NCBI GenBank assembly: GCA_030583745.1
Contig: CP129473.1
Coordinates: 362,887 to 426,886 of the forward strand
Origin: Minisyncoccota bacterium
Lineage (GTDB): Bacteria; Patescibacteriota; Minisyncoccia; Phycocordibacterales; BOKC01
Reading direction: 5' to 3'
DNA length: 64,000 nt
Below the pieces are notes generated by a model. It did no database searches. It was not told where the DNA came from and saw only the letters and a program-made list of their open reading frames with translations. The translations under genes were made by a program, and so were the position numbers. Of this stretch, positions 34,145 to 40,100 are shown one piece after another; the first letter of the stretch is position 1; each line of letters opens with the position of its first letter.

Positions 34145-34227
34145 AAAAACACCTTAACAACAAGGTTTTTACATAAGAGTTATTCAATAACCCTATCATA
34201 GAAATTATTGGCGTATTTACTTATTTT

Positions 34228-34292
34228 AGTAGTCCGTAACCTCTGCTAATCCACCGTTTGAGTTGGTAACGACACTGGTGCCGCCTAGGTGG
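34228..34292 (-). pseudogene. Stub of RHS core 3' region (third, truncated copy); encodes ...HLGGTSVVTNSNGGLAEVTDYY... but is not followed by a toxin ORF.
   Basis: ~63 bp nearly identical to 36778..36843 and similar to 37970..38035. Confidence 0.5.
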
Positions 34293-34359: not shown

Positions 34360-34734
34360 TTAATCATTATTCCAAAAATTAATTACATTATTCCACTCAT
34401 TTTTAAGATTGTCTGATAAATAAATCAAAAATTCCTCAGGATTAGCGTCTTTTTCCCAAGAAATATTATTTTGCAAGGTTTCTAATAATCCTATTGTAAT
34501 TGCTTCTTTGACATATCTATCGCCATCTTTAAATATGTTATCTATCAGTTTAAATATTGTTTTTAGTTCTTCTTCCTTTTTTTCTTTATAAAGTTTTAAA
34601 ATGTATCTGGAAAGCTCTGCAAGAATTGTGTAGACATCTTCTTTCTCCCAAACAAATTCCATAAACTCTAAATATCCTCTGAACCCATCAGATTTTTTGA
34701 CTATGTGGTCTGTTAAATCTCTCTTAGTAAACAT
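34360..34734 (-). CDS. Hypothetical 124-aa acidic protein; candidate immunity protein for the orphan toxin 34735..35505.
   Basis: Position immediately downstream of toxin cassette with 1-nt spacing. No recognisable family. Confidence 0.4.
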   Translation of the reverse strand: MFTKRDLTDHIVKKSDGFRGYLEFMEFVWEKEDVYTILAELSRYILKLYKEKKEEELKTIFKLIDNIFKDGDRYVKEAITIGLLETLQNNISWEKDANPEEFLIYLSDNLKNEWNNVINFWNND

Positions 34735-35505
34735 TTATTTTTTTATCTTACTAAGTGCATCCTTAAGATCTTTGGAAATTCTGTTTAGAACATTCCTCTC
34801 TTGAGAATTCAAACTAGATCCATGTTTATCAAATATATTATCAATTCTATTTAGGGTATTACGCGCCTTTTCAATATGGGTGGAACCCCCAACCGGGTCG
34901 CCTGTCTTTGCGGTATGTCTTATTGCGTCTGCCGTGCTACCATCCCCTATTTTCGATCCTGCTCTATAATTATCTCTTATAAGGTTAAGGATGCTTTCAT
35001 TCTCTACACCTTTCATTAAGGAACGACCCACCATATTAGTGCTTCTAAAAGCATCCCCCAACGCACCAAATACTCCAGGAATAACAGAAACTCCAGCCAA
35101 AGCTCGCTCACCCCAACTCAATCCTTCACCAGTAAATACATCTTGACCAGTGCGTGCTTCTTGAATTGCAATAGCATCACTGGAGCCGGGCGCGAAGTTA
35201 AGGGCAGTCTGGTAATTATCAACCAGTATCGGCACCAGATGAACATTTGAGGCGATGAACGAAGAGATGGCGATGAGAGCGGGGGCTAGTTGAATAAACT
35301 CCCCTCCCGGGTCCACATGTTTGATCGGATTCCCCCTAGCATAACTGTACGAATTATGCAGTTGCGGATCAGAAAGGTATTGCTCTAGTTCAAGGTTGGT
35401 TTTGTTCTTTATTTCCCCAGGATTACCTACCGCAAGAAAGACTGGGTCCTGACTCAAGAACCTAGCGGTCTTACCATCCTGATACCTCGCCACCATGTAG
35501 TTCAA
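34735..35505 (-). CDS. Orphan RHS C-terminal cassette 2: conserved core tail (in-frame extension up to ~35640 without ATG) plus divergent C-terminal toxin domain of unknown type.
   Basis: N-terminus MNYMVARYQDGKTARFLSQDPVFLAVGN parallels the main RHS junction NYMNARYQDGKVGRFISQDPVFLAVGN. Upstream in-frame sequence encodes ...TDYYPYGKIKLDE. Confidence 0.6.
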   Translation of the reverse strand: MNYMVARYQDGKTARFLSQDPVFLAVGNPGEIKNKTNLELEQYLSDPQLHNSYSYARGNPIKHVDPGGEFIQLAPALIAISSFIASNVHLVPILVDNYQTALNFAPGSSDAIAIQEARTGQDVFTGEGLSWGERALAGVSVIPGVFGALGDAFRSTNMVGRSLMKGVENESILNLIRDNYRAGSKIGDGSTADAIRHTAKTGDPVGGSTHIEKARNTLNRIDNIFDKHGSSLNSQERNVLNRISKDLKDALSKIKK

Positions 35506-35668
35506 ATCAGTAGCTTCGTCATAGAAGTGCCCGGTGAATTTTCTTCTTTCTTTAAATGTACCTGTCGTCTCGTCTAACTTTATCTTACCATACGGGTAGT
35601 AGTCCGTAACCTCTGTTAATCCACCTCTACTGGTGGATTAGCGAAATAATAAATTAAAAAGAAATTTG

Positions 35669-35917
35669 TTAAATTTTCATGTGGGGAGAACAAAAACCTG
35701 TGAGATAATCTAAGGCCTCTAATACCCAATCTTCATCTTTCTCTCTGCCTTCTTTCCGTAGAAAAAGCATATACTCTGTCACATCGCTCTCTAATTGTTT
35801 CCGATCATACCCTTCCTTGAGAATCTTAATGAAAAGTTCGCGCATTTTAAGATCAGGGTCCATTTCTGCCTTGAGAGCTTCCTCTATACCATTTATCAAT
35901 TCTTCTTTCTTTTTCAT
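35669..35917 (-). CDS. Hypothetical 82-aa protein; candidate immunity protein for orphan cassette 1.
   Basis: Genomic position only. Confidence 0.35.
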   Translation of the reverse strand: MKKKEELINGIEEALKAEMDPDLKMRELFIKILKEGYDRKQLESDVTEYMLFLRKEGREKDEDWVLEALDYLTGFCSPHMKI

Positions 35918-35920
35918 AAA

Positions 35921-36676
35921 TTAAAGCTTTTTCCAGAATTCTTGGGTAGATTGCATTAGTTTATCAAGCTTGCTTTTAGACATACTGTTAGAAGGTTGTA
36001 TAGTGCCGTGAGTAGAACTATCTGGAACATATTTAAGACCGCTCGGTAAATTAGAGCATTTTATGCACCATACTGGATCTTTTCCTGTGCCTCCAAATTC
36101 TGGTGTGCGTCTATGTATTTGTAGATTATAGGGACTATTAGGACTAACCGACATTCCCCCATCTGCGGAATGAACAAAACCTTTTGCATCTATAGGAATA
36201 TCCCTTCCTAATCTTACCCCTAACCCTCTCGCGGAATTTTCTACCATCGGAAGTCCGTCGGGACCCTCTTTCATCGCCCTAAATAGAAGCGTTTCTCCAA
36301 CATCATCCACTTTATTCACCGCCGCTCCTACCGCCTTATTCACCCCCTTAGAAGCGCCTCCACCCGGAGCGACGATTGAGCCGACCAGGATAGCGGCTTC
36401 CAGTCCGGGATTTTCAAAATTATCGCTGGTTGGAGCGTAAGCAACATTGGGAGTCAAAAGCCCGATAATAGCGGCTAAAACTAAACCTTCCCCCGTCGGA
36501 TCAACATACTTTAGAGGATTGTTGGCCACATAACTGTAGGAGTTTAGCTCTTGAGGATTTATCAGTAGTTGTTCCAGAGTTCTGTCGTATTTACTCAAAT
36601 CCTTTCCGACATCATGGAACATGGGATCTTGTGAGATAAATCTCCCAACCTTCCCATCTTGATAACGGGCGTTCAT
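35921..36676 (-). CDS. Orphan RHS C-terminal cassette 1: core tail (in-frame extension to ~36843, 160 bp identical to main RHS) plus distinct C-terminal toxin domain of unknown type.
   Basis: MNARYQDGKVGRFISQDP junction identical to main gene. DNA 36623..36783 matches 37826..37987. Confidence 0.6.
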   Translation of the reverse strand: MNARYQDGKVGRFISQDPMFHDVGKDLSKYDRTLEQLLINPQELNSYSYVANNPLKYVDPTGEGLVLAAIIGLLTPNVAYAPTSDNFENPGLEAAILVGSIVAPGGGASKGVNKAVGAAVNKVDDVGETLLFRAMKEGPDGLPMVENSARGLGVRLGRDIPIDAKGFVHSADGGMSVSPNSPYNLQIHRRTPEFGGTGKDPVWCIKCSNLPSGLKYVPDSSTHGTIQPSNSMSKSKLDKLMQSTQEFWKKL

Positions 36677-36866
36677 GTAATTAAGGTCGGTATCTTCATC
36701 GTAGGTGTGGCCGGTGTATTTCTTTGACGTTTTGAAAGTGCTGGCTTGTTCGTCTAGTTTTATCTTACCATACGGATAGTAGTCAGTAACCTCTGCTAAT
36801 CCACCGTTTGAGTTGGTGACAACACTGGTGCCGCCTAGGTGAAAAGTTAAGAGCTCCTATTGTTAC

Positions 36867-37127
36867 TCACGATAACTTTAAAATTGATTCTGCGATTTTA
36901 TAATATTTCTTGCTATCCCCAGCTATATTTTCATCAAACTGATCTACAAAGACTGTATATAGTTTTTCTCCAAGTTCATATTTATCATCTTCCTTGTTTA
37001 ACAATGGTATGATAAATTTTTCAACCAGTGGATCATATTCATCATTAGGTGCACCAGTTCTTATAAGATCAACGGGGTCGTGGTTTCGAAAGATGTCTTT
37101 TATTTCTTTTATATAATTCTTTTCCAT
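36867..37127 (-). CDS. Hypothetical 86-aa acidic protein; candidate immunity protein for the main RHS toxin.
   Basis: 2-nt gap downstream of RHS stop. Small acidic cytoplasmic protein. Confidence 0.4.
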   Translation of the reverse strand: MEKNYIKEIKDIFRNHDPVDLIRTGAPNDEYDPLVEKFIIPLLNKEDDKYELGEKLYTVFVDQFDENIAGDSKKYYKIAESILKLS

Positions 37128-37129
37128 TT

Positions 37130-40100
37130 TTATTCCGCATATTTTTTAAGAAACTTGATTATATGTGGTTCAAACTGCTTTTTTGAGTAAGTAGTAATAA
37201 CTTTATTAGTTTTATTATCTAACACAACAGCCGTCTCTTTTGTAAGATACAAAGATCTTCCACTTGTTTGTTCTAATTTAGCGACAGGATTTCCTATGGT
37301 ATTCAACACATCTTGATGACTGACGCCTCTTGTTTCAGATCTCATGGCTGAATATGGAGTGTATCCACCAAATTTTCCTGCTGTAGGTTCTACAATTTTG
37401 CCTAAATCTCCGATTGAATCGCCAACTCTTAGTGATTTACTTGAGTCAATAACTCTCTCAATTGCTTTTCTTGCATCATTAACATCATCCGCCTTCCCTC
37501 CAATCCTAGCCGCAAATCCTAATCCCGCCACTCCCGGCAAAGCAGCACCGGCAATATCAGCTCCTAAAGCAGTAATGTTTTCCCTGCTGACACTTCCAGT
37601 TCGGGCAATATCTTGACCGATTTTGTATAGATCATAGCCAATAAAGCCGACATCAAGAAAGATGTCAATGAATTCTCCGGTGGAGTCGGTGTGTTTAAGC
37701 GGATTGTTCTTGACGTAACTGTACGAGTTCAAGAGTTGCGGATCAGAAAGATACTGCTCTAATTCTAGTCCCGTCTTCTCCTTTATTACCTGTGAATTCC
37801 CCACCGCCAGAAAGACCGGATCTTGTGAGATAAATCTCCCAACCTTCCCATCTTGATAACGGGCGTTCATGTAATTAAGGTCGGTATCTTCATCGTAGGT
37901 GTGGCCGGTGTATTTCTTTGACGTTTTGAAAGTGCTGGCTTGTTCGTCTAGTTTTATCTTACCATACGGATAGTAGTCGGTTAACTCTTCTAATCCACCG
38001 TTGCTTTTGGTAACGACACTGGTGCCTAAGAGATGGTCGGGGTGTAGATAGAATATCTTGGCACTTGCGTCTATAGGCTCTGACATGGAGCCAAATCCCC
38101 CAAATCCTCCTCCGCCTGTTTGTAAGACACTTGTTTCAATCGTGGCGATCAGATCGTCGCCTGCGTAGATATGCTTGGTCGGTTTTCTATTTTTGACATC
38201 ATAATGCCGAGTGATATAAGTGGTGGTGGCAGAGTTGTTTATGGCATAGGTTAAACGATTGCCTTGGGGATCGTAGGAGTAGGTTGTGGTGGTGGCGCCG
38301 TTTGAAATTTCGGTCAATTGATTGCGGTAATCCCAAGAGAAAGATGATTGACCGAGAGCGGTTAAGTTTCCATTCTTATCGTAAGTGAGAGTATTGGAAG
38401 CGATGGAAGTTACGGCATGAGGATTGGCGTAATTTGATCCCTGGTTGCCTTCATATAAGTAATTCCCTTGATCGGATTTGGATGTGATGTTGCCGATATT
38501 TGAATAGGTGTAAGCTTCTGAATAATTTCCGCCGACAGCATCAGTTGTGGAAGCTGAAGTCAGGCGGTGCAGATCGTCATAGGCATAATCAATCATCTTG
38601 GCTGTGTTTGTATCAGAGCTGTCAATAATTTTAGTGATGTTTCCTACGGCATCATAAGTGTAGGATAAATCTTGCCAGACATTTTCATTGTAGCGAGTAG
38701 TTTTGTTTGACAGGCGGTAGAGCTTGTCAGGATCATAGGTATTTGTCGTTGAAGCGTTATTTCCGTAATGGAGGTAAGTGACTTGACCCAAAGGAGAGTA
38801 ATCTAGATCGTGCGCCAAGACGCTCGGATATATTGAAGTCGGCTCTTTCCAGGCCACCTTTTCCAATAGACCGGCCTTGTTGTAATCGTAGCTGATAAAT
38901 GAACTATCCGGGTGGGTAAGCTTAGTTAAATTGCCCTGACGATCATACTCATATTGAGTGGCGTAATTCGTGTTGATAATCTTTTTGGTTTCTTTTTTAA
39001 CACGACCTAAAGGATCATATTCATTTGATAGAACCATAATTGTAGTTGTGGCACTGCAAAGCTGGCCGATACCGTTCGGGCATGAGTCGTAACCGTATTC
39101 CACTTCTGTTCCAGACCAGACGGTGTAATTTTCTGTCAGACGACGATTTAGGTCGTTATATGTATATATAATGTTTTGGCCTTTCGGGTCTGTACTAGAA
39201 GCCAAATTACCCGCAGGATCATAATCGTAAGACCAGATACCAAAAGTATTGTCTGTGGGATTATGAAGATCTTCTGCCGTTAAATTCCTACCTAACCCGT
39301 CATAGGTAAAGTTGCGGATATTACCTTCAGCGTCAGTAATCTTTGTAAGATTTCTATTGCCATTCCAGTTATAAGTCGTGGTATAGGTATTTGCGTTATT
39401 GATTTCTTCAACTTTAACAAGATTATCATATGCGTCTTTGTAGAAATGCTTTACTTTATTCAGCGGATCGGTAACGGTAAGCTTCCAATCGTTATAGGTA
39501 TTAGCGGTTGTTCCTAAGGCATTGAATATTGTTTTAACTCTTCCCAGAGCGTCATAAGAATGCTCGATGTATAGAGCGGATGTGGTGGTAGCAGGTGTAG
39601 AGCTTGCGCCGGTAGAAAAATACGGCAGTGATTCTTTCTGTATTTTACCAATGGCATTGTAGGCAAAATCGCGAACAGAAAAATTATTGAAATCTTCAGC
39701 CTCTCTACGTTCTTGGATCACTCTTCCCAGCCCGTCAAGATAAGTATACGCATCAGACGAAGTGGCGGAATTAAGATAATCAGTTCTTTTAATTGAGCGT
39801 GGAAAACTGAAGTCGTCGTAGGAAAAAGCGGTCTTGGTGACTAGATTTCCCGGTGAGTCCAAATCCGGCTGTTTTTCTTCAATTATTCTGCCAAATGAAT
39901 CGTAGAAGACCTGAAAAGTATTTCCGTTAGGGTCTATTATTTCTCGCGGTTTACCTGAAGAATAATCGTAGTACCTTTCTGTTATATGTGATAGCGGATT
40001 TGTAGTAGTGGCAGGATATAGATTGTGGAGATCGTAAACGTAAGTTGTTATTTTGCCTCTAGGGTCTTTTTCCTCGGTTACCAAACCGAAATTGTTATAG

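What the first reader, a model, noticed from the sequence alone, without database searches (positions are those of the whole stretch)
36867..37127. Three small acidic ORFs as candidate novel immunity proteins for three uncharacterised RHS C-terminal toxins
Each toxin tip (main, orphan 1, orphan 2) is followed within 1-4 nt by a small ORF (86, 82, 124 aa) with no obvious family. Toxin tips after the DPxF junction are ~180-200 aa and also unassigned. Motifs seen include GGMSVSP / LLFRAMKEG in orphan 1 and GSTADAIRHTAKTGDPVGGSTHIEKA in orphan 2. These are good candidates for new toxin/immunity families. The span given covers only the first immunity ORF; the other two are at 35669..35917 and 34360..34734.
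Basis: inference. Interest (0 to 1): 0.55.

Follow-up and report, generated by a model that had tools for sequence, protein, structure and literature searches.

The report
RHS toxin array with three immunity genes
A tiny-genome (candidate phyla radiation) bacterium carries a large secreted RHS toxin gene plus two spare toxin tips, each followed by a small acidic protector gene; the layout is a well-known kind of bacterial weapon locus, and the toxin and protector families are mostly poorly described, not new.

Summary
Three small acidic ORFs (86, 82 and 124 aa; pI 4.7-4.9) start 2, 3 and 0 nt after three basic RHS toxin tips (pI 9.2-9.9). All lie on the minus strand of a Candidatus Paceibacterota contig.

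The claim of "no obvious family" is only partly right.
- **Main tip:** its model is a confident BECR-fold RNase-like domain, closest to colicin E5, RelE and BrnT, with weak DUF4258 similarity. Its partner imm1 is a divergent DUF1871 protein (PDB 1U84 fold).
- **Orphan 1:** this is a Pfam Tse2-family toxin. Its partner imm2 belongs to a family of about 100 proteins with no Pfam model and a C-terminal GWCSPHMK motif.
- **Orphan 2:** this has a PT-TG pre-toxin domain plus a widespread all-helical tip. The tip has no Pfam or NCBIfam model and no significant structural match. Its partner is DUF7674.

Each toxin-partner pairing recurs in unrelated genomes, including Patescibacteria, Dysgonomonas and Proteus mirabilis. 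That supports cognate immunity.

The locus is a classic Rhs main-plus-orphan array with repeated core-homology boxes. It carries a Sec-type leader and no PAAR domain, so it resembles WapA/WapI. I rate it a new member of a known kind, of moderate interest, mainly for the functional hints it gives to DUF1871, DUF7674 and the unmodelled families.

The parts
37130..43663 (-). Main RHS/YD-repeat toxin gene (2177 aa). It has an N-terminal hydrophobic leader, an SpvB domain, FG-GAP-like repeats, RHS repeats, the Rhs-associated core and a C-terminal toxin.
   Evidence: ORF. Pfam RHS_repeat 3.4e-35, FG-GAP_3 2.1e-26, SpvB 3.4e-16. TIGR03696 Rhs_assc_core 4.8e-12. No PAAR or VgrG domain was reported.
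37133..37444 (-). Main toxin tip (last 104 aa): BECR-fold, colicin-E5/RelE/BrnT-like predicted RNase domain.
37445..37669 (-). Pre-toxin linker between the DSTGEF junction and the tip (hydrophobic, Gly/Ala-rich).
   Evidence: This is the only part shared with P0002 and P0003 (68% and 40% identity). It aligns with the same region in other RHS tips.
36867..37127 (-). imm1 (86 aa, pI 4.7): divergent DUF1871-like predicted immunity protein for the main tip.
   Evidence: Relatives P0034, 40, 48, 69, 79, 130 and 134. 7 of 8 hit PF08958. The profile hits PDB 1U84 at E=0.015, and hhalign gives 88.6% probability. The same toxin-partner pair occurs in L006, L007 and L040.
36603..36856 (-). Core-homology box that begins orphan 1, in frame with the orphan ORF.
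   Evidence: A 230-nt direct repeat is 91% identical to 37797-38026 in the main gene. The in-frame translation is HLGGTSVVTNSNGGLAEVTDYYPYGK....
35921..36676 (-). Orphan 1 toxin module. The Tse2-family domain lies at about 35945..36259.
   Evidence: PF18648 ADPRTs_Tse2 E=2.9e-12, 47.8 bits against a cut-off of 26.6. It is 69% identical to a 427-aa RHS/Tse2 protein in L097.
35669..35917 (-). imm2 (82 aa, pI 4.9): member of an unmodelled family with a C-terminal GWCSPHMK motif; predicted immunity for the Tse2-like tip.
   Evidence: 104 relatives, none with a Pfam domain and no PDB relative. It lies directly downstream of Tse2-like proteins in L092-95, L096-98 and L102.
35423..35652 (-). Core-homology box that begins orphan 2.
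   Evidence: Direct-repeat family D1, 63% identity to the reference copy. The frame stays open in frame up to 35637.
34735..35505 (-). Orphan 2 toxin module. PT-TG pre-toxin domain at about 35005..35211; unmodelled all-helical tip at 34738..35067.
34360..34734 (-). imm3 (124 aa, pI 4.8): DUF7674, predicted immunity for the orphan-2 tip.
   Evidence: PF24722 E=8.7e-21. DUF7674 genes directly follow tip3-type toxins in L089, L090 and L100 (Proteus mirabilis).
34227..34291 (-). Terminal 65-nt remnant of the core-homology box, with no toxin attached; it marks the end of the array.
   Evidence: Direct-repeat family D2, 95% identical to 36777-36841. It translates to HLGGTSVVTNSNGGLAEVTDY followed by a stop.

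Best explanation
This is a polymorphic-toxin locus of the Rhs type in a Candidatus Paceibacterota (CPR) bacterium.

The 2177-aa protein is exported by a Sec-type leader. Its RHS shell most likely encloses the C-terminal toxin, which is cut off at the conserved core junction and delivered into a neighbouring cell (inferred from the family).

The expressed tip is a BECR-fold RNase-like domain that probably cleaves tRNA or other translation RNA (inferred from fold). The producer is protected by imm1, a DUF1871-fold acidic protein translated from the next ORF 2 nt downstream, presumably by binding the basic toxin 1:1 (inferred).

Two downstream orphan modules each keep about 45-60 codons of core sequence:
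- a Tse2-family toxin with imm2;
- a PT-TG plus helical toxin with DUF7674.

The repeated core boxes allow homologous recombination to swap an orphan tip and its immunity gene onto the main gene. The orphan immunity genes can also protect against kin that express those tips (inferred from Rhs orphan arrays in enterobacteria).
For: - **Anatomy:** searches show the ORFs, 0-3 nt coupling, repeated core boxes at 91%, 63% and 95% identity, acidic partners and basic tips.
- **RHS architecture:**
- **Organism:** (NCBI name for the identical imm1).
- **Main tip fold:**, with weak DUF4258 support.
- **imm1 = DUF1871-like:**
- **Conserved pairs:**
  - tip1 with an imm1-like gene in L006 (Dysgonomonas), L007 (Patescibacteria) and L040;
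  - Tse2-like with imm2 in L092-98 and L102;
  - tip3 with DUF7674 in L089, L090 and L100.
- **WapI link:** in L005 the tip1-type toxin is followed by a WapI-like immunity protein (PF24716, 3e-31). This places the toxin family in the company of WapA-type RHS toxins.
Against: - No activity, binding or expression data exist; every functional step is inferred.
- The window's main tip has Tyr where 27 of 30 relatives have His, so its catalytic competence is uncertain.
- The window's imm1 itself scores no Pfam family; its DUF1871 link is transitive.
- 79 of 80 metagenomic DUF1871-like genes have no tip1-type toxin upstream, so the fold is not exclusively an immunity module.
- Some imm2 relatives stand alone or overlap an RF-1-domain gene.
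- The Tse2 family's biochemical activity is itself unproven (own knowledge).
- The orphans have no convincing promoter.
Confidence: 0.8

Rival explanations
1. The orphan modules are decaying remnants. Their toxin parts are never made, and imm2 and imm3 are either dead or kept only as acquired defence against other strains, not as partners of a usable toxin reserve.
For: The orphans lack the N-terminal 1900 aa and a clear promoter. Orphan 2 begins with TTG and its core box is only 63% identical to the reference copy, the orphan-1 box. A toxin-less 65-nt remnant shows that decay occurs.
Against: Both orphan frames are intact through the toxin domain, and their families' conserved residues are present. 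The orphan-1 box is 91% identical over 230 nt to the main gene, which is enough for recombination. The immunity ORFs are full length and conserved.
Confidence: 0.3
2. The small ORFs are not inhibitors but accessory or chaperone proteins needed to fold, stabilise or load the toxin tips.
For: Small acidic helical proteins also serve as toxin chaperones in other secretion systems (own knowledge). DUF1871-like and imm2-like genes often occur without a toxin.
Against: Known Rhs chaperones are encoded upstream and match the N-terminal region, not the variable tip (own knowledge). Here the partner changes with the tip and sits directly downstream. In L005 the same toxin type is followed by a WapI-family immunity protein in the same position. 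P0190 follows a free-standing 131-aa Tse2-family gene in a two-gene, toxin-antitoxin-like arrangement.
Confidence: 0.07
3. The small ORFs are chance open frames in AT-rich DNA and do not encode proteins.
For: The region is 30-38% GC, where short ORFs arise easily. imm1 had only itself as a hit in the word-indexed search.
Against: A full HMMER search found relatives for all three. 104 imm2 relatives carry an invariant C-terminal motif. imm3 matches Pfam at 8.7e-21. Synteny with the same toxin types is conserved across phyla.
Confidence: 0.01

Closest known systems
WapA/WapI of Bacillus subtilis (Sec-exported, wall-associated RHS protein with polymorphic C-terminal tRNase tips and cognate immunity)
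   Same: Both have a signal-peptide leader, no PAAR/T6SS module, an RHS shell, a variable C-terminal toxin after the core junction and an immunity gene immediately downstream. A relative of the main tip is paired with a WapI-family protein in L005. The producer presumably lacks an outer membrane.
   Different: The N-terminal half here carries SpvB and FG-GAP-like repeats, as in Tc-toxin TcB proteins. The immunity protein is DUF1871-like, not WapI. I did not test homology of the tip to any WapA tip. The host is a CPR bacterium.
Rhs main-plus-orphan arrays of Enterobacteria (Salmonella, E. coli, Dickeya, Proteus)
   Same: A full-length rhs gene is followed by displaced tip-plus-immunity modules, each starting with a fragment of core sequence that can recombine with the main gene. 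The orphan-2 tip type with DUF7674 occurs as exactly such an orphan in Proteus mirabilis.
   Different: Those systems are T6SS-delivered (PAAR/VgrG). No such domain was found in this protein.
Tse2/Tsi2 of Pseudomonas aeruginosa
   Same: Orphan 1 matches the Pfam Tse2 family above its threshold and is followed by a small acidic protein of about 80 aa, the size of Tsi2.
   Different: The domain is fused to an RHS core rather than being a free T6SS effector. The imm2 profile finds no Tsi2 chain in the PDB even at E<=10 and carries a distinct GWCSPHMK motif.
BECR RNase toxins: colicin E5, RelE/YoeB, BrnT/DUF4258 (Ntox49), CdiA-CT NC101
   Different: No member reaches the DUF4258 gathering score. 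The profile finds no PDB chain by sequence. The partner is not ImmE5, BrnA or RelB but a DUF1871-fold protein. The near-invariant His is Tyr here.
DUF1871 (PDB 1U84, Geobacillus hypothetical protein; scaffold of the designed binder HB36)
   Same: The imm1 family aligns over 65 columns with 1U84 (hhalign 88.6%), and 7 of 8 relatives hit PF08958.
   Different: No function is recorded for DUF1871 in the papers searched. The window protein itself does not score the Pfam model.

Membership tests
Rhs polymorphic toxin with orphan array | YD/RHS repeats plus the Rhs-associated core, ending in a DPxG-type junction before a variable tip | tested here: met
   PF05593 3.4e-35. TIGR03696 matches the main gene and both orphans. 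The junctions DSTGEF, DPTGEG and DPGGEF align.
Rhs polymorphic toxin with orphan array | Downstream modules that begin with a fragment of core sequence, carry an unrelated tip and have their own small downstream gene | tested here: met
   Direct repeats D1-D3. The tips are unalignable after the junction. The orphan frames stay open into the core fragment.
Rhs polymorphic toxin with orphan array | Cognate immunity shown by neutralisation of toxicity | not testable with these tools
   This needs co-expression assays. Only conserved synteny is available.
T6SS-delivered Rhs | N-terminal PAAR domain or adjacent VgrG/chaperone genes | tested here: not met
   Pfam on the full protein gives SpvB, FG-GAP_3 and RHS_repeat only. 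The neighbours are Capsule_synth and sugar-modification genes.
WapA-type Sec-exported RHS toxin | N-terminal signal sequence on an RHS protein in a cell without an outer membrane | tested here: inconclusive
   A hydrophobic leader, KNSVFARITASLIAVSFLMPTHTLLF, is visible. No signal-peptide predictor was available, and the envelope type is assumed from the phylum.
Pfam PF18648 ADPRTs_Tse2 | Score above the Pfam gathering threshold | tested here: met
   47.8 bits against a cut-off of 26.6, E=2.9e-12, residues 140-244.
Tsi2 immunity family | Sequence similarity of the partner to Tsi2 | tested here: not met
   The imm2 profile (36 sequences) against all PDB chains at E<=10 returns no Tsi2 entry. 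There is no Pfam hit.
Pfam PF14076 DUF4258 (colicin-like BECR) | Score above the Pfam gathering threshold (25 bits) | tested here: not met
   The window tip scores 13.3 bits, E=0.11. The best of 30 relatives reaches E=7.5e-4.
BECR fold superfamily | Alpha/beta topology superposable on colicin E5, RelE and BrnT | tested here: met
BECR fold superfamily | RNase activity | not testable with these tools
   Invariant R39, Q59, T84 and Y86 are kept, but the near-invariant His31 is Tyr.
Pfam PF08958 DUF1871 | Match to the family model or to its solved member 1U84 | tested here: inconclusive
   The window imm1 has no Pfam hit at E<=1. 7 of 8 relatives hit it, best 2.2e-6. The profile against 1U84 gives E=0.015, and hhalign gives 88.6%.
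Pfam PF24722 DUF7674 | Score above the Pfam gathering threshold | tested here: met
   74.5 bits against a cut-off of 27, E=8.7e-21.
Pfam PF14449 PT-TG pre-toxin domain | Score above the Pfam gathering threshold | tested here: met
   47 bits against a cut-off of 23.5, residues 99-167 of orphan 2.
CdiA-CT EC536-type helical tRNA anticodon nuclease | Detectable homology, with the catalytic His aligned | tested here: inconclusive

The most novel reading that the evidence does not exclude
The orphan-2 tip and DUF7674 form a widespread toxin-immunity pair, found from CPR to Proteus, that has not been described. It has an all-helical fold unlike any solved structure and possibly a new activity, or it is a very remote EC536-like metal-dependent tRNA nuclease. 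In addition, DUF1871 (structure solved two decades ago, function unknown) and the GWCSPHMK family are immunity folds for BECR and Tse2-like toxins. Together these would show that CPR bacteria wield a WapA-like contact weapon with a swappable arsenal.
Probability: 0.4. Interest if true: 0.55.

Novelty: new member of a known kind. Interest (0 to 1): 0.4.

Why it matters
The locus gives testable functions to several orphan protein families:
- DUF1871 as an inhibitor of a BECR RNase;
- DUF7674 as the immunity partner of a very common but unmodelled helical toxin domain;
- a GWCSPHMK-motif family as an alternative to Tsi2 for Tse2-like toxins.

It also shows a complete, apparently Sec-exported RHS weapon with a recombination-ready toxin reserve in a Paceibacterota genome of about 0.7 Mb. 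That bears on how these reduced, probably host-attached bacteria compete or attack. None of this changes the known concept of polymorphic toxin systems.

Tried and rejected
- **Single-sequence searches.** Pfam, NCBIfam and PDB searches of imm1, imm2 and the main tip gave nothing useful.
- **Word-indexed homologue searches.** The imm1 search found only itself. The 179-aa main C-terminus found only relatives of the pre-toxin linker.
- **Locus searches.** Narrower alignments worked.
- **Is DUF1871 generally toxin-linked?** In 79 of 80 metagenomic loci no tip1-type toxin lies upstream. Recurring neighbours look (by eye, no profile search) like MazF/PemK toxins and 23S-IVP proteins. I therefore do not claim DUF1871 as a dedicated immunity family.
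- **Orphan-2 tip.**
  - Pfam and NCBIfam on 25 relatives gave no family.
  - Foldseek gave nothing below E=0.77.
  - The afdb50 library was unavailable.
- **EC536 CdiA-CT lead.** I followed it by fetching the gene from E. coli 536, but hhalign gave only 8% probability.
- **Promoter and terminator scan of the array.** This was uninformative.
- **Literature.** Nothing on the function of DUF1871 or DUF7674, and nothing on RHS toxins in Patescibacteria.

Full report
**Observation.**
- a 2177-aa RHS protein (37130..43663), followed 2 nt later by an 86-aa ORF (36867..37127);
- a first orphan tip (35921..36676), followed 3 nt later by an 82-aa ORF (35669..35917);
- a second orphan tip (34735..35505), abutted by a 124-aa ORF (34360..34734).

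The small proteins are acidic (pI 4.7-4.9) and the toxin tips are basic (pI 9.2-9.9). GC content falls to 30-38% over the tips and small ORFs, against 42-53% over most of the RHS body. An identical imm1 sequence is named by NCBI as a hypothetical protein of a Candidatus Paceibacterota MAG on a 692-kb contig.

**Array anatomy.** The three tips align well only up to the junction (DSTGEF, DPTGEG, DPGGEF) and are unrelated after it.
- A 230-nt stretch of the main gene (37797-38026) is repeated at 91% identity at the head of orphan 1. The orphan-2 copy is 63% identical to that orphan-1 reference copy.
- A 65-nt remnant of the same box lies after imm3 (34227-34291) with no toxin attached.
- Both orphan frames stay open through these core fragments.

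This is the classic Rhs main-plus-orphan arrangement. The full protein has SpvB, FG-GAP-like and RHS repeats and the Rhs-associated core, with no PAAR domain. Its neighbours are capsule and sugar-modification genes. With its hydrophobic N-terminal leader, it most resembles the Sec-exported WapA of Bacillus.

**How the relatives were found.** I made one exhaustive HMMER search with the four unassigned pieces joined end to end (collected). Every piece has relatives, which I then treated separately.

**Main tip and imm1.**
- *Tip family.* At least 51 representative proteins carry the tip, several at the C-termini of proteins of 1770-2957 aa.
- *Pfam relation.* 14 of 30 relatives give sub-threshold DUF4258 hits. 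A 2026 bioRxiv preprint places DUF4258/Ntox49 in the colicin-like BECR branch.
- *Catalytic residues.* The window copy keeps the invariant R39, Q59, T84 and Y86. It has Tyr where 27 of 30 relatives have His.
- *imm1.* It has seven clear relatives of 80-93 aa, plus a tandem duplicate. 7 of 8 family members hit Pfam DUF1871. The profile finds the DUF1871 structure 1U84 (E=0.015), and hhalign gives 88.6% probability over 65 columns.
- *Pairing, starting from the toxin.* Four genomic loci were recovered. In a Patescibacteria MAG (L007) and a Dysgonomonas MAG (L006), the ORF directly downstream matches the imm1 profile (E=1.8e-16 and 2.5e-8). In L005 the downstream ORF is a WapI-family protein (3e-31). 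In L008 it is something else.
- *Pairing, starting from imm1.* Only 1 of 80 metagenomic DUF1871-like genes (L040) has this toxin upstream. The others sit among genes that look (by eye, no profile search) like MazF/PemK toxins and 23S-IVP proteins.

I conclude that the pair is real and recurrent, but DUF1871 is a broader fold of which this is one use.

**Orphan 1 and imm2.**
- *Tip.* It matches Pfam ADPRTs_Tse2 above threshold.
- *imm2 family.* There are 104 relatives of about 80 aa with an almost invariant C-terminal GWCSPHMK(L/I) motif. They have no Pfam domain and no PDB relative, Tsi2 included.
- *Close relatives.* Relatives at 72-77% identity lie 3-4 nt downstream of RHS-core/Tse2 proteins that are 37-69% identical to orphan 1.
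- *Distant relatives.* A 35% relative follows a free-standing 131-aa Tse2-family gene. Others stand alone, two of them overlapping an RF-1-domain gene.

**Orphan 2 and imm3.**
- *Tip.* Orphan 2 carries a PT-TG pre-toxin domain and a 95-110-aa tip with at least 88 representative relatives. The invariant residues are Tyr, G-x-G, A-D-A, V-G, His and Lys. No Pfam or NCBIfam model matches any of 25 relatives.
- *A lead only.* The profile's second-best PDB hit is CdiA-CT of E. coli 536 (E=0.14). The family's invariant His falls on the catalytic H178 (role of H178 from PMC11724271). The same chain is Foldseek rank 6. hhalign probability is only 8%.
- *imm3.* It is DUF7674 (8.7e-21). DUF7674 genes directly follow this tip type in L089, in L090, and in an Rhs orphan of Proteus mirabilis.

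**Interpretation.** Shown here:
- the anatomy of the array;
- the family or fold assignments;
- the recurrence of each toxin-partner pair.

Inferred:
- export, encapsulation and release of the tip;
- RNase activity of the main tip;
- 1:1 neutralisation by the acidic partners;
- tip switching by recombination at the core boxes.

The rival readings are decayed orphans, chaperones and chance ORFs. The first cannot be excluded for the toxin halves of the orphans. The other two fit the data poorly.

**Novelty.** The system is a known kind. Two tips fall in known superfamilies and one immunity gene is in Pfam as a DUF.

Three things appear new, as far as the searchable literature shows:
- the functional linkage of DUF1871 and DUF7674 to specific toxins;
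- the imm2 family;
- the unmodelled helical tip.

The setting in a CPR bacterium also appears new. I score interest at 0.4.

Noticed in passing
window 40992-42457 (- strand, inside the RHS gene): A 219-nt tandem repeat of 6.7 copies, 100% identical at the DNA level, encodes the 73-aa FG-GAP-like units. The region is GC-rich (about 0.51) compared with the rest of the gene. Perfect identity suggests a very recent expansion or an assembly artefact.
   Followed up: partly
window 43825-48407 (- strand): Three paralogous genes of about 480 aa with a Capsule_synth (PF05159) domain lie directly upstream of the RHS gene. A methyltransferase, a PseB-like dehydratase and a DegT aminotransferase lie downstream. 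The toxin array is therefore inserted in a surface-polysaccharide cluster.
   Followed up: partly
window 37352-37354 (codon for residue 31 of the 104-aa main tip): Tyr replaces the His found in 27 of 30 relatives. Two other relatives (P0023 and P0065) share the Tyr, so this may be a functional sub-lineage rather than an inactivating change.
   Followed up: partly
L091 3001-3761 and L099 3501-4267: Distant imm2-family genes (about 40% identity) overlap by one base the start of a 175-aa RF-1-domain (ArfB-like) gene, with no toxin nearby. This hints at a second role for the GWCSPHMK family.
   Followed up: no
L005 3-1270: A Gammaproteobacteria MAG RHS tip of the same family as the main tip is followed by a WapI-family immunity protein (PF24716, 3e-31). 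One toxin fold is therefore served by at least three unrelated partner families (DUF1871-like, WapI-like and the L008 type).
   Followed up: partly
L003 1094-1749: An imm1 relative (P0040) lies immediately upstream of a Barstar-like gene with no toxin in between, like a small cluster of orphan immunity genes.
   Followed up: no
L090 214-3869: One contig holds an Ntox21 fragment, two DUF7674 genes and a tip3-type toxin. This suggests a multi-module toxin/immunity island in a non-CPR genome.
   Followed up: no
L001 1146-1517: A 123-aa orphan fragment is 68% identical to the main gene's junction and pre-toxin linker but is cut off before any toxin domain. It lies next to a NUDIX gene, so it is a decayed relative of this locus in another metagenome.
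   Followed up: no
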